A stretch of 64,000 bases of DNA from Thermoanaerobaculales bacterium (GTDB taxonomy: Bacteria > Acidobacteriota > Thermoanaerobaculia > Thermoanaerobaculales > Sulfomarinibacteraceae): contig JAZBOQ010000114.1 of assembly GCA_036351195.1 (NCBI GenBank), forward strand, positions 11,832-75,831. Reading direction: 5' to 3'. The translations under genes and the position numbers were made by a program. The first letter of the stretch is position 1. Each line of letters opens with the position of its first letter. The notes beneath the pieces are model-generated. The model had not been told where the DNA came from, did not search any database, and worked only from the letters and a program-made list of their open reading frames with translations. Of the stretch, positions 7,227 through 34,460 are shown in pieces.

Positions 7227-7454
7227 CGCGTCGGGAGGGCTTTGAAAATCTCCACCGTCGAGCTCCCCATGTTCATCTCGGACGCCGACAGCGACACCTC
7301 TCGCCCCGTCGATGTCTCGTCTATCCCCAACAAAATGGTACCAGACGGCCGGCGTTGATCCGTATTCCGCCGCGATGTCGTCTGATTAGAAAATGGGCGG
7401 TTTTGCTCGACGAGTGGATGCCGCGTCCCCGTCATCGCTGGAAGGAGCTTGATC

Positions 7455-10400
7455 ATGCGTCGATCACCATTGTTCGCCGGAGCGCTCGTGTTTTTCTTCG
7501 TCGTGATTCGAGCCGCGGCTCCGGCGGTCGCCGGGGTCAGCTTCGGAGAGGTCGCCAAGCTGAACCCCTCGAATGCCGGTACAAACCACAAGTTCGGCAA
7601 TGCGGTCGCCATCGACGGCGACACCATGGTCGTCGGAGCGTTCACCGGCGAGGGGTCCGCAGCCCTCACCGGCGCCGCCTACGTGTTCTCTCGCAATCAG
7701 GGCGGCGCCGACAACTGGGATGAAGTCGTCAAGCTCACAGCCTCGGACGCGGATGTCTACCATTACTTCGGCCACTCGGTCGCCATCGACGGCGACACCA
7801 TCGTGGTCGGTGCGGTCAGTGCTCCCGGCATCGTCGCCAACGCGGGCGCGGCGTACGTCTTTCAGCGAAACCACGGCGGCCCGGACAACTGGGGCGAGGT
7901 GGCCAAGATCGTGGCCTCGGACGGCGTCGCCTCCGACTACTTCGGCCACTCGGTCGCGATCTCGGACGGCATTGTCGTTGTGGGGGCGAGGTACCACACC
8001 GCCGCAGCTTCCCAGTCGGGCGCAGCGTATGTCTTCGAGCGCAACCTCGGCGGGGCCGACAGCTGGGGTGAGCGCGCCAAGCTCACCGCGTCCGATGCCG
8101 CCTCGCAGAATGCGTTCGGCCATGCGGTGGCCATCGACGGCGACACCGTGGTGATCGGCGCCAACCAAGACAAGTCGGTCTACGTCTTCGATCGCAACCG
8201 GGGCGGCGCCGACAGCTGGGGCGAGGTGAAGATCCTGTCCGGCTCATCTGTGGGCGGGCTGTCGTTCGGGGTCTCGGTCGACCTCTCCGGCGACCTGATC
8301 GCGGTCGGGGGGTACAACGGCTCCGACATCGGAGCGACATGGGTCTTCGAGCGCAACCTCGGCGGTCCCGACAACTGGGGCGAGGTTGCGCGTGTCGCCG
8401 CCTCCGACGGCAGTCCGGCCGATACCTTCGGCATTTCCGTGTCCATCTCGCACGATCGGCTCCTTGTCGGAGCATCGAGAAACGACACAACCGCGACAGA
8501 TGCCGGTGCCGCATACCTTTTCGCGCGCAACGCGGGCGGCGCCGACAGCTGGGGGCACGTGCAAAGGATCGAAGCATCCGACATCGCCGACAGCGACTTC
8601 TTCGGCTACGCAGTTGCCCTCGATCGCTTGACCGCAGTGATTGGCGCCACACAGGATGACGACTTCGGTTCGTACTCCGGGTCGGTTTACGTCTTTGCCG
8701 GATGCGGTGGTTCGTCGGTCGAGTGGACCGAAACGGCGAAGACCGTCGCGTCAGACGGCTTCGCCGACCATCAGTACGCCAAAGACGTCGCGTTCGACGG
8801 CGACATCGCCGTCGTCGGCGCCAAGTACGACGACGACCTCGGCAGCGCGGCCGGCGCCGCCTACGTTTTGATGCGGAACCTCGGCGGCCCGGACAACTGG
8901 GGCGAGCTCAAGAAGATCTACGCATCCGACGGCTACCCAGACCAGTACTTCGGCCAACGAGTTGCCATGAGCCGCGACGTCGTCGTCATCGGGACCTACC
9001 AAGACGACGAGATTGGCGACAACTCCGGAGCAGTTTACGTGTATGAACGAAACCACGGAGGAGCCGACAACTGGGGCCAGGTCGCCAAGCTGACCGCCTC
9101 GGACGGCGTGGCCGGCGCCTGGTTCGGGTACTCGGTCGCCTTCGACGGCGACACCATCGTGGTCGGCGCCGTCTACGACACCGGCGGGATCGGAACCAAC
9201 GCCGGCGCCGCCTACGTCTTCGCCCGAAACCACGGCGGCGCGAACACCTGGGGTGAGGTCACGAAGCTGACCGCCTCAGATGGGTGGAGTTGGGACATGT
9301 TCGGGTTCGCGGTGGCGATCAGCGGTGACACGATTGCCGTGGGCGCGGGGCGGGAGACCACCGGGTCGGCGATCGAGTCGGGAGCCGCCTACGTCTTCGC
9401 CCGCAATCAGGGTGGCGCCGACAACTGGGGCGAGATCGCCAAGCTCAAGGCCTCCGATGCGGCGACCAACGATTATTTCGGCACGGCGCTCGATCTCTCC
9501 AACGACACGCTGCTGGTCGGCTCGAGCAGCGACGACGACGCGGGCTTCAGCTCCGGATCCGCCTACGTTTTCGAGCGGAATCACGGGGGCCAGGACTCCT
9601 GGGGAGAGGTCGCCAAGCTCACGGCCTCGGACGCCGCCGCCTACGATCTGTTCGCCTCGGCCGACGCGGTGGCCATCGACGGCGATGTCATTGTGATCGG
9701 CTGCTACAAGCACGAGCTCTTCGGGATCGCCTCCGGCTCCTTCTACGTCTACGAACGCAACAACGGCGGAGCGGACGCATGGGGAGAAACTGCCGTCATC
9801 GTCCCGTCGGACCAGTCCTACGCACAGAACTTCGGCAACGCGGTGGACCTGGTTGACGGCACCGTCATGGTTGGCGCGGTCTACGACGCGACCATGGGTT
9901 CGGTCTACTTCTTCAACGCCGGCTGCCCCGAGTTCGACTACGGCGACGCCCCCGACCCGGACTTCCCTACGCTCGCGGTCTCCGGTGGCGCCCGACACAA
10001 GCTCGGTGGGAACGTCTATCTCGGAGCGACCGTCGACATGGATCTCGACGGCCAACCGACCGCGAACGCCGACGGCGACGACACCGATGCCGGCGGCGAC
10101 GACGACGACGGCGTCACCTTCTCGTCGCTGGTGATGACCGGTGCCTCGGCCGATGTCGAGGTCGTCGCGTCGGACGCCTGTCTGCTGAACGCGTGGGTCG
10201 ACTTCAATGACGACGGTGATTGGGACGACGCGGGCGAGCAGATCTTCAGCGACGAGGCCCTGGTCACCGGCACCAACCCGCTCACCTTCTCGGTTCCTCC
10301 CGATCACCTACCCGGCGCGGATGTGGTGGCTCGGTTCCGAGTCAGCTCCGCCGGCGGAGTCGGTCCCGGAGGCGAGGCGGCCGACGGCGAGGTCGAGGAC

Positions 10401-11318
10401 CATGTGGTCCACATCGAGGCGGTCGACTTCGGCGACGCGCCGGATCCGACCTACCCGACCCTGCTCGCCTCCGACGGCGCCCGCCACCTGCTGGGCGGCT
10501 CGCTCTACCTCGGCTCGCTGGTCGACGCGGAGCCCGACGGCCTGCCGAGCTCGGGCTCCAACGGCGACGACCTCGACAACCTGGACGACGAGGACGGCTT
10601 CACCCTCGGCATGCTGCCCATCGGCGGACCGGCCTCCGGCACCATCACCGCCACCGAAGCCGGGCTCGTCGACGGCTGGATCGACTTCAACCTCGACGGC
10701 GACTGGGACGACGCCGGCGAGCAGATCTTCGCGAGCTACGCCGTGACCGCCGGCAGCAACTCCTTCTCGATCCCGGTCCCCGCCACCGCCGTTGCGGGAC
10801 ACACCGTAGCCCGCGTCCGGATCAGCAGCACGGGCGGTCTCTCGCCGACCGGGCTGGCCCCCGACGGCGAGGTCGAGGACTACGCCATCGAGATCGTCGA
10901 GGGCCCGGACCTCGAGATCGGGATGGCGCCCTCGGCGCCGTGGGTGCCCTCGGGCGACGCCCTGAGCTACACCGTCACCGTCACCAACAACGGGCCGCTC
11001 ACCGCGACGTCGGTGACGCTGACCGACGTGCTGCCCGCCGAGCTGAACTTCGTGTCCTCGACGCCGGGCTCGCCCGACTGCACCTTCGCCGGCGACACCC
11101 TAACCTGCGACCTCGGCACCATGGCGGCTCTCGACAGCGCCCAGGTCACCATCGAGACCGTCGTCGTCCACCCATCCTGGGGATCGTTCAGCAACACCGC
11201 CTCGGTCGCGGCGGCCGAGCTCGATCCGATCTCGGCCAACAACGCCGCCACCGTCGACACCCGCATCGCCCTCTTCGTCGACGGCTGGGAGAACGGCGAC
11301 CTGTCTGCGTGGGACTGA
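7455..11318 (+). CDS. Large secreted FG-GAP repeat protein with two GEVED-type modules and a DUF11-type repeat
   Basis: GAAGGAG Shine-Dalgarno 7 nt before the ATG at 7455 (the ORF track starts at TTG 7449). Signal peptide. 14 units of about 60 aa (GAAYVF.RN.GG.D.WGEV.KL.ASD...FG.SVAIDGDT.VVGA) across 7540..9925. Two modules of about 160 aa ending DGEVEDH / DGEVEDY (10386, 10866). DUF11-like LSYTVTVTNNGPLTATSVTLTDVLP. Confidence 0.85.
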   Translation: MRRSPLFAGALVFFFVVIRAAAPAVAGVSFGEVAKLNPSNAGTNHKFGNAVAIDGDTMVVGAFTGEGSAALTGAAYVFSRNQGGADNWDEVVKLTASDADVYHYFGHSVAIDGDTIVVGAVSAPGIVANAGAAYVFQRNHGGPDNWGEVAKIVASDGVASDYFGHSVAISDGIVVVGARYHTAAASQSGAAYVFERNLGGADSWGERAKLTASDAASQNAFGHAVAIDGDTVVIGANQDKSVYVFDRNRGGADSWGEVKILSGSSVGGLSFGVSVDLSGDLIAVGGYNGSDIGATWVFERNLGGPDNWGEVARVAASDGSPADTFGISVSISHDRLLVGASRNDTTATDAGAAYLFARNAGGADSWGHVQRIEASDIADSDFFGYAVALDRLTAVIGATQDDDFGSYSGSVYVFAGCGGSSVEWTETAKTVASDGFADHQYAKDVAFDGDIAVVGAKYDDDLGSAAGAAYVLMRNLGGPDNWGELKKIYASDGYPDQYFGQRVAMSRDVVVIGTYQDDEIGDNSGAVYVYERNHGGADNWGQVAKLTASDGVAGAWFGYSVAFDGDTIVVGAVYDTGGIGTNAGAAYVFARNHGGANTWGEVTKLTASDGWSWDMFGFAVAISGDTIAVGAGRETTGSAIESGAAYVFARNQGGADNWGEIAKLKASDAATNDYFGTALDLSNDTLLVGSSSDDDAGFSSGSAYVFERNHGGQDSWGEVAKLTASDAAAYDLFASADAVAIDGDVIVIGCYKHELFGIASGSFYVYERNNGGADAWGETAVIVPSDQSYAQNFGNAVDLVDGTVMVGAVYDATMGSVYFFNAGCPEFDYGDAPDPDFPTLAVSGGARHKLGGNVYLGATVDMDLDGQPTANADGDDTDAGGDDDDGVTFSSLVMTGASADVEVVASDACLLNAWVDFNDDGDWDDAGEQIFSDEALVTGTNPLTFSVPPDHLPGADVVARFRVSSAGGVGPGGEAADGEVEDHVVHIEAVDFGDAPDPTYPTLLASDGARHLLGGSLYLGSLVDAEPDGLPSSGSNGDDLDNLDDEDGFTLGMLPIGGPASGTITATEAGLVDGWIDFNLDGDWDDAGEQIFASYAVTAGSNSFSIPVPATAVAGHTVARVRISSTGGLSPTGLAPDGEVEDYAIEIVEGPDLEIGMAPSAPWVPSGDALSYTVTVTNNGPLTATSVTLTDVLPAELNFVSSTPGSPDCTFAGDTLTCDLGTMAALDSAQVTIETVVVHPSWGSFSNTASVAAAELDPISANNAATVDTRIALFVDGWENGDLSAWD

Positions 11319-29047: not shown

Positions 29048-29063
29048 TGGCATGGAGCTTGCG
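29048..29063 (+). promoter_or_regulatory. Sigma54 (-24/-12) promoter candidate TGGCAT-N5-TTGC
   Basis: TGGCATGGAGCTTGCG with exact GG-N10-GC spacing. Lies in the 131-nt gap after fecR-like, about 65 nt upstream of the ATG at 29127. Confidence 0.55.
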
Positions 29064-30439: not shown

Positions 30440-32296
30440 ATGGCCCGAGAAACCGCGACGAGACGAATCGACAGATACCTGCTGACCTCGGTGGTGATCG
30501 GCATGGTGTGCATGCCCGCCGCCACGGTAGCGGAAGAGCCGGAACGGGAGGACCCCGCCGTCGTTCACCACAGCCTCATCGACGTCAAACGGCCATCGGC
30601 GCTCACGGCCCCCGAGGAGATTCGCAACTGGCCGAGTCTGGAACCGCCGGGGGCCCGGGGCGCCCCGAGAAATCTGGCAACCCAACCTCTGCAGACCGTC
30701 GTCTTCGACCTCATCAGCCGACAAGAGACCCTACTGGATTACGAACCCTTCACCGGCCCCGCCACCGAGCAGAAGACCGAGGGATTCCCGGGGATCGAGC
30801 CCAGCGGCATCCCCGCCGAGTCGGTCATCGGCGCCGACGACCGCCAGCTCATCACCTCGGTAACGACCTTTCCGTGGAATACGGTCGTCAAGCTCTATAT
30901 CGAAGCTCCCGACGGCACCAACTGGATCTGCTCCGGCGAGATGATCGATTCATTCCACGTGATGACCGCAGGACACTGCATTTATCTCCACGACCACGGT
31001 GGATGGGCGACCAGCGTCCGATTCGTTCCCGGCATGGACCAGGACTACTGGCCCTACAACTACGCGTGGGGCACCTTCATCCGGAGCTACACCGGGTGGA
31101 CCTCGGACGAGAATCACCACCACGACTGGGCGGTGGTAACCATCGACCGAAACGTCGGATCCTTCACCGGCTGGATGGGACGCTGGACCGAGGACCCGAG
31201 CCACTCGTGGTATACCAGCATCGCGAACGTCGCCGGCTATCCCAGCGATCTCGACGGCGGCGCGCGGATGTACTTCGACGCCGACTACGGCCGCACCGCC
31301 GATGATTACAACCACTGGTACTACATGGACACGGCCGGCGGCATGAGTGGTGGTCCGGTGTGGATCTACAGCGGCGGCAACCGGTACATCGTAACGATCC
31401 ACGCCTACGGCGACGACGGATCCGGCAGCAACCACGGCACCAGGCTCAACCAGGAAAAGTACGACCGGATCTTTTATTGGCTCGACGCCGACACGCCGCC
31501 GACCGACCGGCCGGATCTGGTGGACGACGGTCAGGCGTGGTCCGGCTTCTCACCGTCGACGGTCACCCGGGACATCACGTCGTTCTCGGCATGGAACGAC
31601 GCCCGCAACGTGGGAACCGCATCCTCCGGCAGCTTCCACGTCTACTTCTATGCGTCGACCGACACTATCATCTCGGAGTCCGATTACTTCATCGGTTCGA
31701 CATTCGTGCCGAGCATCGACCCCTTCAACTACGGCGATGTGTCGTGGGGCGGGACCTTTCCCCAGAGCATCCCATCCGGCAGTTACTACATCGGCTGGAT
31801 GCTCGACGGCCCCGGAGTCATCAGCGAGTTCGACGAATCCAACAACACGGCCTACGACGACACGATGATCACGGTGCTGGATCCGTGCGCCCTTGACGTC
31901 TACGAGCCCGACAACACCAGCGGAACCGCGAGTGCGTTCACGCTGAGCACGATCCAGACTCACAGCCTCTGCCTCGAGGGCGACACCGACTGGGTCACCT
32001 TCTACCTGAACGTGGACTCGAACGTCACCATCTCGACCAACGGACCGTCGGGCGACACCGTGATGCAGCTCTTCGACGCCTCGCTGACCCCCATCGCCTT
32101 CGACGACGACGGCGGGCCAGGCCTGTTTTCGCTCATCATCGACAGTATCGATGCCGGCACGTATTACGTTCAGATCTGGGAGTACGGCAGCAACGACTAC
32201 ATCACAACCTACGACCTTGAGATCGACGCCGCGCCGAGCCTCCAGATCTTCTCGGACGGCTTCGAGAGCGGTCACACGGGTGCCTGGGGTCCATAG
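30440..32296 (+). CDS. Secreted S1-family (trypsin / Glu-endopeptidase-like) serine protease with CARDB-like and pre-peptidase C-terminal domains
   Basis: GGGAGG Shine-Dalgarno. Catalytic blocks MTAGHC, HDWAVV and GGMSGGP. CARDB-like segment ending ESNNTAYD. PPC-like DVYEPDNTSGTA...GDTDWVTF...DDDGG. Confidence 0.85.
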   Translation: MARETATRRIDRYLLTSVVIGMVCMPAATVAEEPEREDPAVVHHSLIDVKRPSALTAPEEIRNWPSLEPPGARGAPRNLATQPLQTVVFDLISRQETLLDYEPFTGPATEQKTEGFPGIEPSGIPAESVIGADDRQLITSVTTFPWNTVVKLYIEAPDGTNWICSGEMIDSFHVMTAGHCIYLHDHGGWATSVRFVPGMDQDYWPYNYAWGTFIRSYTGWTSDENHHHDWAVVTIDRNVGSFTGWMGRWTEDPSHSWYTSIANVAGYPSDLDGGARMYFDADYGRTADDYNHWYYMDTAGGMSGGPVWIYSGGNRYIVTIHAYGDDGSGSNHGTRLNQEKYDRIFYWLDADTPPTDRPDLVDDGQAWSGFSPSTVTRDITSFSAWNDARNVGTASSGSFHVYFYASTDTIISESDYFIGSTFVPSIDPFNYGDVSWGGTFPQSIPSGSYYIGWMLDGPGVISEFDESNNTAYDDTMITVLDPCALDVYEPDNTSGTASAFTLSTIQTHSLCLEGDTDWVTFYLNVDSNVTISTNGPSGDTVMQLFDASLTPIAFDDDGGPGLFSLIIDSIDAGTYYVQIWEYGSNDYITTYDLEIDAAPSLQIFSDGFESGHTGAWGP

Positions 32297-32333: not shown

Positions 32334-32501
32334 TTGGGAGAGGTGCCGGAAAGGTGCCGGGAAAGTTATTAAGGTGTACCTCTGTCCACCGATGAGTTCT
32401 CCCCTCCCCTACTTCAGGCACAGCGCCAGACTCACCGCCGACTGAACCAGAAAGCCGCACCCGGCGCCTTTCTTCGGCACCTTTTCTGGCACCCTCCCCA
32501 A
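32334..32501. mobile_element. MITE-like element with terminal inverted repeats of about 24 nt
   Basis: Left end ttgggagaggtgccggaaaggtgccg. Reverse complement of the right end ttggggagggtgccagaaaaggtgccg. 168 nt long with no ORF. Confidence 0.55.
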
Positions 32502-32584: not shown

Positions 32585-32830
32585 GCTCGACATCGGCATC
32601 GCCTCTGCCAAATCGGTCACCGACATGTGGAAGTGTGCACGTAGCGGTGACGTTCTGCCCGAGCTGCGTTGCCCCACCTTCGCGTTGCACCTATACTGGT
32701 CGAAAGTCGTTGCGAGTGACATTCAATCGAAGCAGGAGGACTTCGGCCTCAAAGCTGAGTGGTCGTTCCGCTCGGACCACGCCGCCCACGAGTGCGTTCG
32801 ATTCCTCGACTCGGATTCGAAGGAGGATGC

Positions 32831-33697
32831 ATGATGCCCAGATCCCTCACCCCACTCGTCATCACTGCCGTCGCAATTGCCGCGGGCCCCGCCGCGGCGA
32901 CAACGCTCGACTTCGACGGTGAGCTTTTGGAAGCGGGAACGCCGGCGAACGGCGTTTTCGACTTCAGATTCCGATGCCTCGAGGGCGCTGACCCCGACGC
33001 TCTTGTCGAGGTCGGGCCCACAGTCGAGAAAGAAGACATTCTCGTGTCGAACGGGAGGTTCAGCGTCGAGCTCGACTTCGGCACCGATGAGGTCTGTTCC
33101 GACTCCGGTTGGATCCAGACGTCCGTCGCCCGTGGCGACCGTCTCGGCGGATTCACGTCTTTGGAGCCGCCCCACCCGGTGCCGCGGTCTCCGAAACCCA
33201 AGTCGGCCGAGTCGATGCCTCCGGGCGCGATCACCTTCTTCGCGTTGCCGCAGTGTCCCCCCGGTTGGACCGAGTACATCGGCGCTCGTGGCCGTGCTGT
33301 GGTCGGTGTGCCCTCCGGCGGCACGGTGGAGGGAACCCTGGGAGTGCCGCTGTCGAACCTTGAGGAGCGCCAACACCAACACGTCTACTCCGACTCGGGC
33401 TTCACGGACGCCGGGGGCGTCCACCAGCACAGTTGGGCGACGATCCAGACGGCCGGCAGCGATGTCCAGTGGTCGAGCTACGACGCAACCGGAAGCCCTG
33501 AACTCGTCTTCTCCTGGCAGAACGGGATCGGCACCGATGGCAGCGGCATCTATCCACTTTCGGCATCTCCGAACGCGACCTATTACACCGAAGAGAGCGG
33601 AGTTCATCAGCACTCGTTTGCAACCGGAAACCAGAGCACCGTCTTCGCACCGGACCTCTTCCCCTACATCCAACTGCTTGCCTGCAGGAAAAACTGA
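32831..33697 (+). CDS. Secreted tail-collar-like (MdpB-like) protein with three HxH motifs, paralog 1
   Basis: AGGAGGA Shine-Dalgarno. Signal peptide. PPGAITFFALPQCPPGWTEY...RGRAVVGVPSGG. HQH three times. C-terminal PYIQLLACRKN. Confidence 0.6.
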   Translation: MMPRSLTPLVITAVAIAAGPAAATTLDFDGELLEAGTPANGVFDFRFRCLEGADPDALVEVGPTVEKEDILVSNGRFSVELDFGTDEVCSDSGWIQTSVARGDRLGGFTSLEPPHPVPRSPKPKSAESMPPGAITFFALPQCPPGWTEYIGARGRAVVGVPSGGTVEGTLGVPLSNLEERQHQHVYSDSGFTDAGGVHQHSWATIQTAGSDVQWSSYDATGSPELVFSWQNGIGTDGSGIYPLSASPNATYYTEESGVHQHSFATGNQSTVFAPDLFPYIQLLACRKN

Positions 33698-33701
33698 CGC
33701 C

Positions 33702-34460
33702 ATGGCTGCGCACACATCACACCCGATGCGATACCTTCTGACATTGGCATCCTTGGTGCTGGCCGCCCCGACGATCCACTCTTCGGGAGCCCAGGAGACA
33801 CACCGTCCGATACCCTCGACCTCGCAGTACTCCGTACACTTGACCGCCAGGCAAGCGGTGTCCTCGAGTGCCGGGGGCCCGTACCTTCTCAGGGTTGGAC
33901 GTGGGGTGGCAGATCCGCGCGACGACCTCATCTTCGCCGACGACTTCGAGTCCGGAAACACCACGGCATGGGATCACACCGAAACGGCGATGCCGACCGG
34001 AGCAGTGGCGTTCTTTGCGGAAACGTCGTGCCCCGAGGGTTGGGGGGCGCTTTCGAGCCGGGGCCGTGTCGTCGTCGGGACCCCGAGCGGCGGCTCGACC
34101 GGGGCCATCGTCGGCACCGGTCTTTCGGACCTGACGGCACCGGCCCACTTTCACCCGCTCTCTCGCTCGCTAGTATCCGGGCCGGACCCCGCCCACACTC
34201 ATCGGTGGTCGATTCTCGCCATGAACGAAAAGTGGTGGTCCTGGTCGGGAGCAAACGTCCCGGCCACGCTCTACGAGTGGACCAACGGGATCGACAACTC
34301 CGGTGAGGGAAACTACCCGCTGGCAGCTCAACTCGGGACCGAGTGGTACACCAGCGGAAGCACTCCTTCGCATACCCACGGGCTGACCATCGCAGCCGAC
34401 ACCTCGATGACGACCCACACGCTCCCGTTCATCCAGTTGTTGATCTGCGTCAAACAGTAG
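33702..34460 (+). CDS. Secreted tail-collar-like (MdpB-like) protein with three HxH motifs, paralog 2
   Basis: Starts 5 nt after paralog 1 (alternative ATG at 33726). Signal peptide. MPTGAVAFFAETSCPEGWGAL..RGRVVVGTPSGG. HFH/HTH/HTH. C-terminal PFIQLLICVKQ. Confidence 0.6.
   Translation: MAAHTSHPMRYLLTLASLVLAAPTIHSSGAQETHRPIPSTSQYSVHLTARQAVSSSAGGPYLLRVGRGVADPRDDLIFADDFESGNTTAWDHTETAMPTGAVAFFAETSCPEGWGALSSRGRVVVGTPSGGSTGAIVGTGLSDLTAPAHFHPLSRSLVSGPDPAHTHRWSILAMNEKWWSWSGANVPATLYEWTNGIDNSGEGNYPLAAQLGTEWYTSGSTPSHTHGLTIAADTSMTTHTLPFIQLLICVKQ

What the first reader, a model, noticed from the sequence alone, without database searches (positions are those of the whole stretch)
32831..34460. Two tandem secreted tail-collar-like paralogs, each with three colinear HxH motifs, and no phage context
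**Shared architecture.** The two adjacent genes are 5 nt apart and encode signal-peptide proteins. Both contain P-x-G-A-[IV]-x-F-F-A-x-x-x-C-P-x-G-W, then RGR-x-VVG-x-PSGG. Both carry three His-x-His motifs at matching positions: HQH/HQH/HQH in paralog 1 and HFH/HTH/HTH in paralog 2. Both end in P-[YF]-IQLL-x-C.

**Family resemblance.** The GW...RGR...G core and a P-x-H-x-H segment recall the phage tail-collar / MdpB-type family. In T4 gp12 and gp37, HxH motifs line the trimer axis and bind Zn or Fe.

**Why unusual here.** There are no baseplate, tail, capsid or lysis genes anywhere in the window. The pair sits behind a decayed sorting tail and a sigma54-controlled secreted-protein island. Paralog 2 also carries an N-terminal pro-region with the FESG..AW motif.

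**Possible role.** They could be free-standing trimeric metal-stapled fibres, such as an adhesin, lectin or bacteriocin-like receptor binder.
Basis: partly seen in the sequence, partly recalled or inferred. Interest (0 to 1): 0.7.

Follow-up and report, generated by a model that had tools for sequence, protein, structure and literature searches.

The report
Secreted phage-fibre-tip-like protein pair
Two neighbouring chromosomal genes of an uncultured acidobacterium encode secreted proteins whose tail end is related to the receptor-binding tip of phage tail fibres, and they belong to a large family that no database annotates and that cells appear to use as surface recognition modules.

Summary
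**Observation:** confirmed. Two co-oriented genes lie 4 nt apart (32831-33697 and 33702-34460). They encode signal-peptide proteins that share a ~160-aa C-terminal domain (36% identity, E 2e-28).

**Family:** the three HxH motifs and a Cys pair are invariant or nearly so. The family has about 3,200 clusters at 50% identity. It has no Pfam or NCBIfam model, and every source name seen is "hypothetical protein".

**Interpretation:** largely right, but indirect.
- No member hits Pfam Collar.
- Profile-profile comparison links the domain over its full length to phage tail-fibre tips (E 3.8e-8; controls E >= 0.06).
- Those phage tips link to T4 gp12 (E 1e-13) and gp37.
- Some relatives sit in real phage tail modules.

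**New here:**
- Paralog 1's N-terminal domain is homologous (E 3e-21) to the surface-anchor domain of Bdellovibrio "mosaic adhesive trimer" (MAT) fibres.
- The two-gene cassette is conserved in Acidobacteriota under purifying selection.
- The window and most relatives' neighbourhoods hold no phage structural genes.

**Best reading:** short, disulfide-stapled, probably trimeric surface adhesins with axial His-metal sites. Trimer formation and metal binding are inferred, not tested.

**Novelty:** a new variant of a known kind.

The parts
32669..32697 (+). Sigma-70-like promoter candidate for the pair (TTGCCC-17-TATACT)
   Evidence: 1 site found against 0.2 expected in shuffles. This is a consensus match only and is not validated.
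32831..33697 (+). Paralog 1 CDS (288 aa, stop included): signal peptide, MAT-N-like domain, Pro-rich linker, tip domain
   Evidence: (identical to NCBI MAG protein V2I67_08640, Thermoanaerobaculales). dN/dS 0.13 against the ortholog in L231.
32831..32899 (+). Paralog 1 signal peptide (aa 1-23, MMPRSLTPLVITAVAIAAGPAAA)
   Evidence: By inspection of the sequence. No lipobox Cys is present.
32900..33169 (+). Paralog 1 N-terminal Ig-like beta-sandwich domain (aa 24-113), a distant homolog of the Bdellovibrio MAT fibre N-terminal domain
   Evidence: The AF2 model gives pLDDT of roughly 85-97 in this region. hhalign against the N-domain set whose members hit NCBIfam NF053851 gives Prob 99.4%, E 3.3e-21; the reversed control gives E 0.17.
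33170..33214 (+). Pro/Lys-rich linker (aa 114-128, PHPVPRSPKPKSAES)
   Evidence: Low pLDDT block in the model; sequence coordinates.
33215..33694 (+). Paralog 1 tip domain (aa 129-288): N-terminal collar strands, HxH stem, Trp-rich head, C-terminal collar strand
   Evidence: HMM hit E 4e-74. Alignments A1, A3 and A4. hhalign to phage fibre tips E 3.8e-8.
33254..33256 (+). Cys142 of the CPxGW motif, proposed disulfide partner of Cys285
   Evidence: Invariant in the alignments. Both Cys are present in 280 of 282 domain instances and both are absent in the other 2.
33374..33382 (+). HxH-1 (HQH, aa 182-184), ascending side
   Evidence: Conserved in at least 90% of relatives.
33422..33430 (+). HxH-2 (HQH, aa 198-200), ascending side, 16 aa after HxH-1
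   Evidence: Invariant. Spacing of 16-17 aa is typical of the family.
33431..33589 (+). Trp/Tyr-rich 'head' insertion (aa 201-253) between the ascending and descending HxH motifs
   Evidence: W202, W214, W229, G232, G237 and G239 are nearly invariant. The model places four beta-strands here.
33605..33613 (+). HxH-3 (HQH, aa 259-261), descending side
   Evidence: Invariant in A3 and A4.
33662..33694 (+). C-terminal collar strand PYIQLLACRKN (aa 278-288), includes Cys285
   Evidence: Family hallmark. It aligns to the PPYyaL.yImK C-terminus of phage fibres.
33702..34460 (+). Paralog 2 CDS (252 aa, stop included): signal peptide, ~65-aa N-region with FESG motif, tip domain
   Evidence: dN/dS 0.25 against the ortholog in L231.
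33702..33782 (+). Paralog 2 signal peptide (aa 1-27)
   Evidence: By inspection of the sequence. Conserved in ortholog P0017.
33927..33971 (+). LIFADDFESGNTTAW motif (aa 76-90) just upstream of the tip domain
   Evidence: 27 of 161 family proteins share it. The same motif ends the upstream protease at 32249-32287. Its function is unknown.
33987..34457 (+). Paralog 2 tip domain (aa 96-252): HFH 34146-34154, HTH 34194-34202, HTH 34371-34379, Cys110 and Cys249
   Evidence: HMM hit E 7e-65. Coordinates. The model gives pLDDT of about 70-93 over this domain.

Best explanation
**What it is.** The two genes form a small operon that encodes two secreted proteins. Each ends in a ~160-aa module derived from the receptor-binding tip of phage tail fibres.

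**Layout of the module.**
- Two N-terminal strands (PxGAxxFF, CPxGW, RGRxVVG) and the last strand (PYIQLLxCxK) form a reduced 'collar'. An N-to-C disulfide probably closes it.
- Between them the chain runs out through two G-x-H-x-H motifs.
- It then forms a conserved Trp/Tyr-rich distal head.
- It returns through a third HxH motif.

**How it most likely works (inferred).**
- By analogy with T4 gp37 and gp12, three chains associate around a three-fold axis.
- Each HxH level then forms a His6 site that binds Fe or Zn and staples a short stem.
- The head is exposed as the ligand-binding face, probably for a conserved glycan or envelope component.

**Roles of the two proteins (inferred).**
- Paralog 1 carries an Ig-like N-terminal domain homologous to the surface-proximal domain of Bdellovibrio MAT fibres. 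It is joined to the tip by a 15-aa linker with no stalk, so paralog 1 is most likely a very short surface-displayed adhesin or lectin.
- Paralog 2 has the same tip behind a different N-region with the FESG motif and no anchor. It is either released or rides on paralog 1.

**Shown:** paralogy, motif conservation, homology to phage fibre tips and to the MAT-type N-domain, conservation of the cassette, purifying selection, non-phage context.

**Inferred:** trimer formation, metal binding, the disulfide, surface location, ligand class.
For: **Paralogy and motifs:**

**Family size:** an exhaustive profile search found 3,215 representatives at E <= 1e-3 and 1,715 at E <= 1e-10.

**Homology to phage fibre tips**
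- hhalign against the phage fibre set: Prob 95%, E 3.8e-8, 129 columns. Reversed and column-shuffled controls give E >= 0.06.
- Chained to the gp12 C-terminal region at E 1e-13 and to the gp37 collar at E 2.3e-8. The direct match to the gp37 HxH pair is E 5.9e-6.
- P0023 hits PHROG tail fiber at 7e-38 and PHROG tail collar at 1e-23.
- The top BFVD fold hit is a tail-collar protein, E 1.4e-4.
- The best PDB hit, though not significant, is the Bizionia C24 long-tail-fibre tip.

**The domain is used as a fibre tip elsewhere**
- IMG/VR tail-fibre genes L137-L139.
- P0193 is the last gene of a prophage tail-tube / assembly-chaperone / tape-measure module.
- L023 (Bacteriovoracia) combines a MAT-N domain, collagen-like Gly-X-Y repeats and this tip.

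**Signs of three-fold assembly**
- Fusion to collagen-like and MAT stalks.
- Single chains with exactly three tandem tips occur in 30 of 161 proteins, and none has four or more. Each such repeat carries one HxH.

**HxH signature**
- G at position -2 in 119 of 226 later motifs, as in six of the seven gp37 iron sites (gp37 iron sites per PMC11705849).
- Regular 16-17-aa expansions, mostly in a 2 up / 1 down or 3 up / 2 down pattern.

**Disulfide:** both Cys are present in 280 of 282 domain instances and both are lost in the other 2.

**Anchor domain**
- hhalign E 3.3e-21.
- NF053851 hits in relatives.
- The source paper proposes a surface-proximal role for this N-domain (PMC10769870).

**Functional genes**
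- dN/dS is 0.13 and 0.25.
- The cassette is conserved in L003, L004 and L231-L233.

**Cellular context:**
Against: - No direct match to Pfam Collar or to any Pfam or NCBIfam model.
- No sequence hit to the PDB.
- Foldseek against the PDB is not significant. TM-scores are low, which is expected for monomer models of intertwined fibres but is still not positive evidence.
- The direct hhalign to gp12 covers only 38 columns (Prob 57%).
- The canonical collar helix is absent.
- Oligomeric state and His geometry were not computed.
- The head is strongly conserved, unlike typical hypervariable phage receptor binders, so the phage analogy may not carry over to the ligand.
- The NF053851 hits of relatives fall below the curated cutoff (about 40 bits against 60), and paralog 1 itself gives no direct hit.
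- It is unknown how such proteins would cross the outer membrane.
Confidence: 0.6

Rival explanations
1. Hetero-oligomer variant. The two paralogs co-assemble into mixed trimers, or one trimer docks on the other. Paralog 1 supplies the surface anchor and paralog 2 a second binding specificity. The cassette, not each gene, would be the functional unit.
For: The gene order, the 4-9-nt spacing and the two architectures (MAT-N + tip, then FESG + tip) are conserved in at least five Acidobacteriota loci. Paralog 2 has no anchor of its own. The collar and HxH positions are colinear in both.
Against: The paralogs are only 36% identical, and phage fibre tips are normally homotrimers. Most family members in other phyla occur as single genes. 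No co-evolution or interface analysis was possible.
Confidence: 0.2
2. A monomeric secreted metalloprotein or enzyme. The three HxH motifs form a metal centre within one chain, either catalytic or metal-scavenging, and the resemblance to fibres is only ancestral.
For: HxH motifs are common metal ligands in enzymes. The AF2 monomer model folds with fair confidence (pLDDT 83). The neighbouring gene encodes a secreted protease. The conserved head could be a substrate pocket.
Against: The number of HxH motifs varies from 1 to more than 10 in 16-17-aa or 9-aa steps among homologs. That is typical of a structural repeat, not an active site. Homologs sit at the ends of collagen-like or MAT fibres and of phage tail fibres. 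Tandem copies come in threes. No hit to any enzyme family was found.
Confidence: 0.1
3. A stranded remnant of a degraded prophage: tail-fibre genes left behind with no present cellular role.
For: The domain is of phage-fibre type, and some relatives are in prophages or viral contigs.
Against: Both genes are intact. Both carry Sec signal peptides, which phage virion proteins normally lack. dN/dS is 0.13 and 0.25. The cassette is conserved across Holophagae and Thermoanaerobaculia. No phage genes were found among the 18 window ORFs scanned. Neighbours of 26 related loci are mainly housekeeping or regulatory genes. The family motif was found in only 3 of 2.9 million viral contigs, against 54 loci in the cellular genome collection.
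Confidence: 0.04
4. A defence or competition decoy: a secreted receptor-binding module that blocks phage receptors, coats competitor cells, or targets a partner toxin in a bacteriocin-like way.
For: Phage-derived receptor binders are reused in tailocins and bacteriocins. The proteins are secreted, and a secreted protease is adjacent.
Against: No toxin, immunity, sheath, tube or lysis genes were seen among the neighbouring ORFs scanned. The strongly conserved head argues against arms-race diversification. PADLOC was not scanned.
Confidence: 0.05

Closest known systems
Receptor-binding tips of phage tail fibres of the collar + HxH type (T4 gp37 tip, T4 gp12 C-terminal domain, Bizionia prophage C24, Burkholderia phage DC1 gp56-like fibres)
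   Same: The domain is split in the same way: N-terminal strands with P-x-G-[WY], an R-x-R-[FV]-hydrophobic-V-G segment, an inserted region carrying G-x-H-x-H motifs on both the outgoing and returning legs around a distal head, and a last strand P-[YW]-x-x-L-x-x-I-x-K. Profile-profile homology is significant. Some family members are true phage fibre tips.
   Different: There is no helix-loop (LF..IG..YGG...F.LPDLRG) and no match to Pfam PF07484. There is an invariant Cys pair, which the two Cys-less phage-contig versions lack. The proteins have Sec signal peptides and a strongly conserved Trp-rich head rather than a hypervariable one. The genes are chromosomal with no tail genes nearby, and no dedicated chaperone gene such as gp38 or gp57A was recognised nearby.
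Bdellovibrio bacteriovorus MAT (mosaic adhesive trimer) fibres (Caulton et al. 2024, PMC10769870; NCBIfam NF053851)
   Same: Paralog 1's N-terminal Ig-like domain is homologous to the MAT-type N-domain, followed by a swappable C-terminal adhesive tip. Longer relatives (L023, L024, L053, L014) have the full layout of N-domain, trimeric stalk and this tip.
   Different: Paralog 1 has no stalk (15-aa linker, 288 aa, against about 1,000 aa). Its N-domain is too divergent to hit NF053851 directly. This tip type is not among those described for Bdellovibrio (S74, beta-sandwiches, TNF-like, C-type lectin). The host is an acidobacterium that is not known to be a predator.
Cellular tail-collar proteins (MdpB of Microcystis, RhiB of Rhizobium; Pfam PF07484)
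   Same: Non-phage bacterial proteins with a tail-collar-like domain and HxH-type motifs (from my own knowledge of the Pfam family description).
   Different: Those proteins match PF07484 and keep the helix segment; these do not. No MdpB or RhiB sequence was available, so no direct comparison was made.

Membership tests
Pfam Collar (PF07484, phage tail collar domain) | Significant match to the PF07484 HMM | tested here: not met
   No family was reported at E <= 10 for either paralog. Collar is absent from the families hit by 121 relatives at E <= 0.01. Phage DC1 gp56 also gives no hit.
Pfam Collar (PF07484, phage tail collar domain) | Split domain: N-terminal strands plus a helix-loop, with the last strand about 100 or more residues downstream at the C-terminus | tested here: inconclusive
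   The N-terminal strands and the C-terminal strand are present and align to phage fibres over the full length. The helix-loop segment is absent (by eye against gp12; hhalign gap).
Pfam Collar (PF07484, phage tail collar domain) | Homology to the founding member, the T4 gp12 C-terminal domain | tested here: inconclusive
   The direct comparison gives Prob 57%, E 1.1e-4 over 38 columns only. The transitive route through the phage fibre set is strong: E 3.8e-8 and then E 1e-13.
gp37-type long-tail-fibre tip (collar-needle-head with His6 metal sites) | G-x-H-x-H motifs on the ascending and descending legs flanking a distal head | tested here: met
   The pattern is 2 up / 1 down in both paralogs and in 65 of 93 domains. 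Same-side spacing is 16-17 aa. G at -2 occurs in 53% of later motifs. hhalign to the gp37 HxH pair gives E 5.9e-6.
gp37-type long-tail-fibre tip (collar-needle-head with His6 metal sites) | Homotrimer with metal ions on the three-fold axis | not testable with these tools
   Only monomer AF2 models were possible and no coordinates were returned. Indirect support: fusion to collagen-like stalks and single chains with exactly three tandem tips.
gp37-type long-tail-fibre tip (collar-needle-head with His6 metal sites) | Part of a phage tail fibre, encoded within a tail module | tested here: not met
   No phage genes were found among the window ORFs scanned. This feature is met only by some relatives.
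Bdellovibrio MAT fibre family (NCBIfam NF053851) | Conserved N-terminal domain that matches NF053851 above the curated cutoff | tested here: not met
   Paralog 1 gives no hit. Relatives score about 23-40 bits against a cutoff of 60. Homology of paralog 1's N-domain to those relatives is strong: E 3.3e-21.
Bdellovibrio MAT fibre family (NCBIfam NF053851) | Long trimeric stalk between the N-domain and the tip | tested here: not met
   Only a 15-aa linker separates the two domains. Longer relatives do have stalks.
Bdellovibrio MAT fibre family (NCBIfam NF053851) | Variable C-terminal adhesive tip; surface localisation | not testable with these tools
   A tip domain is present, but its adhesive function and location need experiments.
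MdpB / RhiB-type cellular collar proteins | Sequence similarity to MdpB or RhiB | not tested
The PF07484 result above argues against close membership.

The most novel reading that the evidence does not exclude
The tip domain defines a large, previously unnamed cellular family: thousands of clusters across Acidobacteriota, Myxococcota, Bdellovibrionota, Elusimicrobia, CPR bacteria and DPANN archaea. Its members would be disulfide-stapled, metal-pinned mini-fibres derived from phage receptor binders, serving as a general cell-surface recognition device. In Acidobacteriota it would work as a fixed two-gene anchor-plus-partner cassette, possibly a heterotrimer. This would extend the MAT-fibre principle far beyond predatory Bdellovibrio, down to a stalk-less minimal form.
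Probability: 0.25. Interest if true: 0.7.

Novelty: new variant of a known kind. Interest (0 to 1): 0.5.

Why it matters
- **Annotation.** It gives a name and a testable model to a family of about 3,200 protein clusters (at 50% identity) that public databases label only as hypothetical.
- **Evolution.** It shows a phage receptor-binding module taken over by cells. The cellular version has a signal peptide, a disulfide staple and a MAT-type anchor.
- **Biology.** Many carriers are predators or episymbionts that must attach to other cells. The conserved Trp-rich head suggests a common ligand that could be identified.
- **Structure.** At about 160 aa the domain would be a very small HxH-metal fibre tip, which makes it a convenient model for metal-stapled trimers and a possible engineering scaffold.

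Tried and rejected
- **Direct family assignment gave nothing.** This covers Pfam and NCBIfam on both proteins, PHROGs on both (E >= 0.2), and phmmer or profile searches against PDB sequences.
- **hhalign of the 13-sequence profile against single gp12 or DC1 gp56 sequences was not significant**. Profiles on both sides were needed.
- **Foldseek of the full-length paralog 1 model against the PDB** was swamped by Ig-like hits to the N-domain. Paralog 2 against the PDB gave only non-significant fibre hits.
- **tblastn of paralog 1's domain against 50,697 phage genomes** found nothing.
- **The exact-sequence contig look-up failed** for P0001 and P0016, so the window context was read from the window itself.
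- **The word-index homolog search badly under-counted the family** (15 and 4 hits). It would have suggested rarity, which the exhaustive search corrected.
- **No sigma-54 promoter was found upstream of the pair**, and window-wide matches are at chance level. No Rfam match was found in the 534-nt upstream spacer.
- **A literature search for the GFESG motif** gave nothing relevant.
- **A first regex-based Cys co-occurrence count was mis-registered and discarded**. It was redone by HMM coordinates.
- **YmaF (PF12788) and Toxin_4 hits in a few relatives** are weak, involve short motifs, and were dismissed.
Full report
**1. What is in the sequence.**

Paralog 1 runs from 32831 to 33697 on the + strand and encodes 288 aa. 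It is preceded by an AGGAGG. Paralog 2 runs from 33702 to 34460 and encodes 252 aa. Four nucleotides separate the stop from the next start.

BLASTP between the two products gives 36% identity over 162 aa, E 2e-28, confined to the C-terminal ~160 aa.

Both N-termini read as Sec signal peptides, and neither has a lipobox. This is by inspection, because no predictor was available.

Paralog 1 is identical to an NCBI "hypothetical protein" of a Thermoanaerobaculales (Acidobacteriota) MAG.

**2. Context.**

Upstream lie these genes:
- a CHASE2 histidine kinase
- a sigma-54 response regulator
- a FecR-domain protein
- a Gly-rich secreted protein
- a secreted trypsin/CARDB/PPC protease

Downstream, on the opposite strand, lie a family III CoA-transferase and LeuCD-like and HMG-CoA-lyase-like genes (read by eye only).

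Ten further ORFs of the window, including the largest ones, are Ser/Thr kinases with TPR repeats, an FG-GAP/GEVED/DUF11 surface protein, an amine oxidase, a TonB-dependent receptor, a molybdopterin oxidoreductase and similar. No phage structural, lysis or integration gene was seen among the ORFs scanned, so "no phage context" stands.

The pair has its own sigma-70-like promoter candidate at 32669-32697. No sigma-54-like site lies upstream of it.

**3. The family.**

Neither protein hits any Pfam or NCBIfam model at E <= 10, and neither hits any PDB sequence.

The word-indexed search found only 15 and 4 relatives. An exhaustive profile search of 1.84 billion representatives then found 3,215 at E <= 1e-3, 1,715 at E <= 1e-10 and 128 at E <= 1e-30.

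Every relative with a source name is called "hypothetical protein", and none has a precomputed Pfam domain. The family is therefore large but unannotated.

In alignments of 65 and 81 members:
- Invariant residues are Cys142, Pro143, His198, His200, His259, His261 and Cys285 (paralog 1 numbering).
- HxH-1, the G-W of CPxGW, the G-R, three Trp residues, several Gly residues of the middle segment, and P, Q, L and K of the C-terminal strand are conserved in at least 90%.

The two Cys are both present in 280 of 282 domain instances. Both are absent in the other two, which are fibre genes on viral contigs. This is the pattern expected of a disulfide that joins the first and last strands. It also fits an extracytoplasmic location.

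**4. Relation to phage fibres.**

*Direct HMM evidence is absent.* Collar (PF07484) is not hit by the two proteins, by 121 relatives, or by phage DC1 gp56.

*Indirect evidence is consistent.*
- One relative, P0023, hits PHROG "tail fiber" at 7e-38 and PHROG "tail collar" at 1e-23. Its domain finds Burkholderia and Ralstonia phage tail fibres by tblastn.
- I built three profiles from IMG/VR: 72 DC1-gp56-like fibre tips, 9 gp12 C-terminal regions and 43 gp37 tips. I also built a 93-sequence profile of the family domain.
- hhalign of the family against the phage tips gives Prob 95%, E 3.8e-8 over 129 columns, from the first strand to the last.
- One reversed and eight column-shuffled phage-tip templates give E 0.06-0.54, and reversed gp37 and gp12 templates give E 0.05 and 0.27.
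- The phage tips match gp12 at E 1e-13 and the gp37 collar at E 2.3e-8. gp12 matches gp37 at E 4.6e-9.
- Directly, the family matches gp12 only over the first 38 columns (E 1.1e-4), and matches gp37 over its HxH-x13-HxH pair (E 5.9e-6).

*By eye,* the family lacks the helix-loop of the canonical collar (LY..IG..YGG...LPDMRG in gp12). CPxGW is followed almost at once by RGRxVVG.

*Structure.*
- AF2 models reached pLDDT 82.9 for paralog 1 and 69.2 for paralog 2, with about 70-93 in the paralog 2 tip.
- The best BFVD match of paralog 1 is a "Phage tail collar domain containing protein" (E 1.4e-4, probability 0.99), followed by baseplate and tail-fibre proteins.
- PDB matches are not significant. 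Even so, the best one for paralog 2 is 6OV6, the Bizionia C24 protein. That protein is described as a long-tail-fibre receptor-binding tip similar to T4 gp37.
- TM-scores are low throughout. This is expected when monomer models of intertwined fibres are compared, but it is not positive evidence.

**5. The HxH pattern.**

T4 gp37 has seven HxH motifs in its tip: three before and four after the head. Six of them read G-x-H-[ST]-H. They are reported to bind seven iron ions (PMC11705849).

In the family:
- 65 of 93 full domains have two HxH before and one after a ~59-aa insertion.
- 12 domains have three before and two after, and 8 have two and two.
- Successive motifs on one side are 16-17 aa apart in 95 of 129 cases. 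In some phage-like members the spacing is 9 aa.
- G is at position -2 in 119 of 226 later motifs.

This stepwise variation is what a structural repeat shows, not an active site. The layout is collar strands, an outgoing HxH leg, a head, a returning HxH leg and a final collar strand. It is the gp37 tip in miniature.

**6. Evidence on oligomeric state (indirect).**

- The tip sits at the C-terminus of proteins with trimer-forming stalks. A 737-aa Bacteriovoracia protein (L023) has the MAT-type N-domain, about 190 aa of collagen-like Gly-X-Y repeats and then this tip. Other proteins of 575-1,610 aa have the same N-domain and this tip.
- 30 of 161 family proteins carry exactly three tandem tip domains in one chain, 17 carry two, and none carries four or more. 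Each repeat of the triple forms has a single HxH. That is what a single-chain pseudo-trimer building one His6 site would look like.
- No multimer prediction could be run.

**7. Paralog 1's N-terminal half.**

Residues 24-113 form a confident Ig-like beta-sandwich. The full-length search had already found this part alone in proteins that end in Peptidase_S74 chaperone or FGE-sulfatase domains.

Eighteen of 121 family representatives hit NCBIfam NF053851, "mosaic adhesive trimer family chimeric fiber protein", through their N-terminal ~80 aa. Their E-values go down to 7e-11, but the scores are below the curated cutoff.

hhalign of the paralog-1-type N-domains against that set gives Prob 99.4%, E 3.3e-21 over 102 columns. 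The reversed control gives E 0.17.

For Bdellovibrio MAT fibres, this N-domain is proposed to sit next to the cell surface and to hold the variable tips outward. It has no PDB homolog (PMC10769870).

Paralog 1 is therefore a stalk-less, minimal relative of such fibres. Of 161 family proteins, 49 have this architecture and 27 have paralog 2's FESG-plus-tip architecture.

**8. The cassette.**

The same order recurs with 4-9 nt between the genes: MAT-N + tip first, then signal peptide + FESG + tip. It is found in a Holophagae MAG (L003), a Thermoanaerobaculia MAG (L004) and three independent metagenome contigs (L231-L233).

Against the L231 orthologs, dN/dS is 0.13 for paralog 1 and 0.25 for paralog 2. 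Both genes are therefore maintained by selection.

**9. Distribution and mobility.**

A motif-seeded scan of one genome per species found 54 loci, all in MAGs. They come from:
- Acidobacteriota, Myxococcota, Elusimicrobia and CPR/Patescibacteria (8-10 loci each)
- DPANN archaea (4)
- single loci in Bacteriovoracia, Omnitrophota, Lysobacterales and others

The same kind of scan of 2.9 million viral contigs found 3 loci.

A Pfam census of 150 neighbouring ORFs from 26 loci is led by response regulators, histidine kinases and housekeeping genes. No phage structural family is in the list of 25 shown. The PHROG census shows only scattered fibre-like hits.

Phage-borne members do exist. The three IMG/VR hits are tail-fibre genes next to tape-measure-sized genes or within arrays of fibre paralogs. 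P0193 is the last gene of a prophage tail-tube / assembly-chaperone / tape-measure module. P0191 lies in an ordinary chromosomal neighbourhood.

The simplest history is a phage fibre tip that cells acquired repeatedly or long ago.

**10. Function.**

The head segment is strongly conserved in both paralogs and across phyla, and it is rich in Trp, Tyr and Gly (W-x11-W-x14-W-x-NGI-x-x-x-G-x-G-x-YP). This differs from the hypervariable heads of phage receptor binders. It points to a common ligand, and aromatic-rich surfaces often bind sugars.

Many carrier lineages are predators or episymbionts (Myxococcota, Bdellovibrionota, Lysobacterales, Saccharibacteria, DPANN, Omnitrophota). That is suggestive of cell-to-cell attachment, but no statistical test was made and the scan was motif-biased.

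I therefore favour a short surface adhesin or lectin. Trimer formation, metal binding, the disulfide and the location are marked as inferences.

**11. Verdict.**

- Homology to collar/HxH fibre tips is real but remote.
- Membership of Pfam Collar is not met.
- The metal-stapled trimer is plausible but untested.

The finding is a new variant of known kinds (phage fibre tips and MAT-type cellular fibres), not a new category. Its value lies in defining a large unannotated family and a compact, testable model. Interest is 0.5.

Noticed in passing
window 32249-32287 (C-terminus of the protease gene 30440-32296) and 33933-33971: The secreted trypsin/CARDB/PPC protease ends in ...LQIFSDGFESGHTGAWGP*. 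This is the same [IL]F-x-D-x-FESG-x3-AW motif that precedes the tip domain of paralog 2 and of 27 of 161 family proteins. These are the only two occurrences in the six-frame translation of the window. The motif may be a module junction or a processing or sorting signal. No literature was found for it.
   Followed up: partly
window 32336-32359 and 32475-32498: A 24-nt inverted repeat (75% complementary, 115 nt apart) lies in the 534-nt spacer between the protease gene and paralog 1: GGGAGAGGTGCCGGAAAGGTGCCG / CGGCACCTTTTCTGGCACCCTCCC. No Rfam match was found in the spacer.
   Followed up: partly
window 29048-29063: A sigma-54-like site (TGGCATGGAGCTTGCG, 2 mismatches) lies just upstream of the likely start of the Gly-rich secreted protein gene. 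That gene follows the CHASE2 kinase, sigma-54 regulator and FecR genes. Matches in the whole window are at chance level (5 found, 7.7 expected), so this is only a lead.
   Followed up: no
L006 (labelled Lysobacterales MAG) 7473-8564 and L008 (labelled Nitrosopumilus MAG) 7542-8570: The two family proteins are very similar along most of their length, and both loci have about 60% G+C. The Nitrosopumilus assignment is probably a binning error, so the archaeal range of the family should be read with care.
   Followed up: no
L023 6186-8396 (Bacteriovoracia MAG): A 737-aa protein combines the MAT-type N-domain, about 190 aa of collagen-like Gly-X-Y repeats, a middle domain and this tip domain. It is a full-length fibre version of paralog 1 in a Bdellovibrio-like organism.
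   Followed up: partly
L030, L034, L035, L044, L046, L049, L051 (Myxococcota MAGs); proteins P0020, P0021, P0023, P0037 and others: Single polypeptides carry exactly three tandem tip domains (30 of 161 proteins, none with four or more). In the short form, each repeat has one HxH. They may be single-chain pseudo-trimers.
   Followed up: partly
window 32975-32977 and 33095-33097 (Cys49 and Cys89 of paralog 1): A second Cys pair lies in the N-terminal Ig-like domain. It is conserved in orthologs P0002-P0004, and both Cys are missing in P0005. This suggests a second disulfide (by inspection).
   Followed up: no
window 7449-11315: A 1,289-aa protein has 13 FG-GAP repeats, two GEVED domains and a DUF11 domain. 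It is another large putative surface protein in the same window.
   Followed up: no
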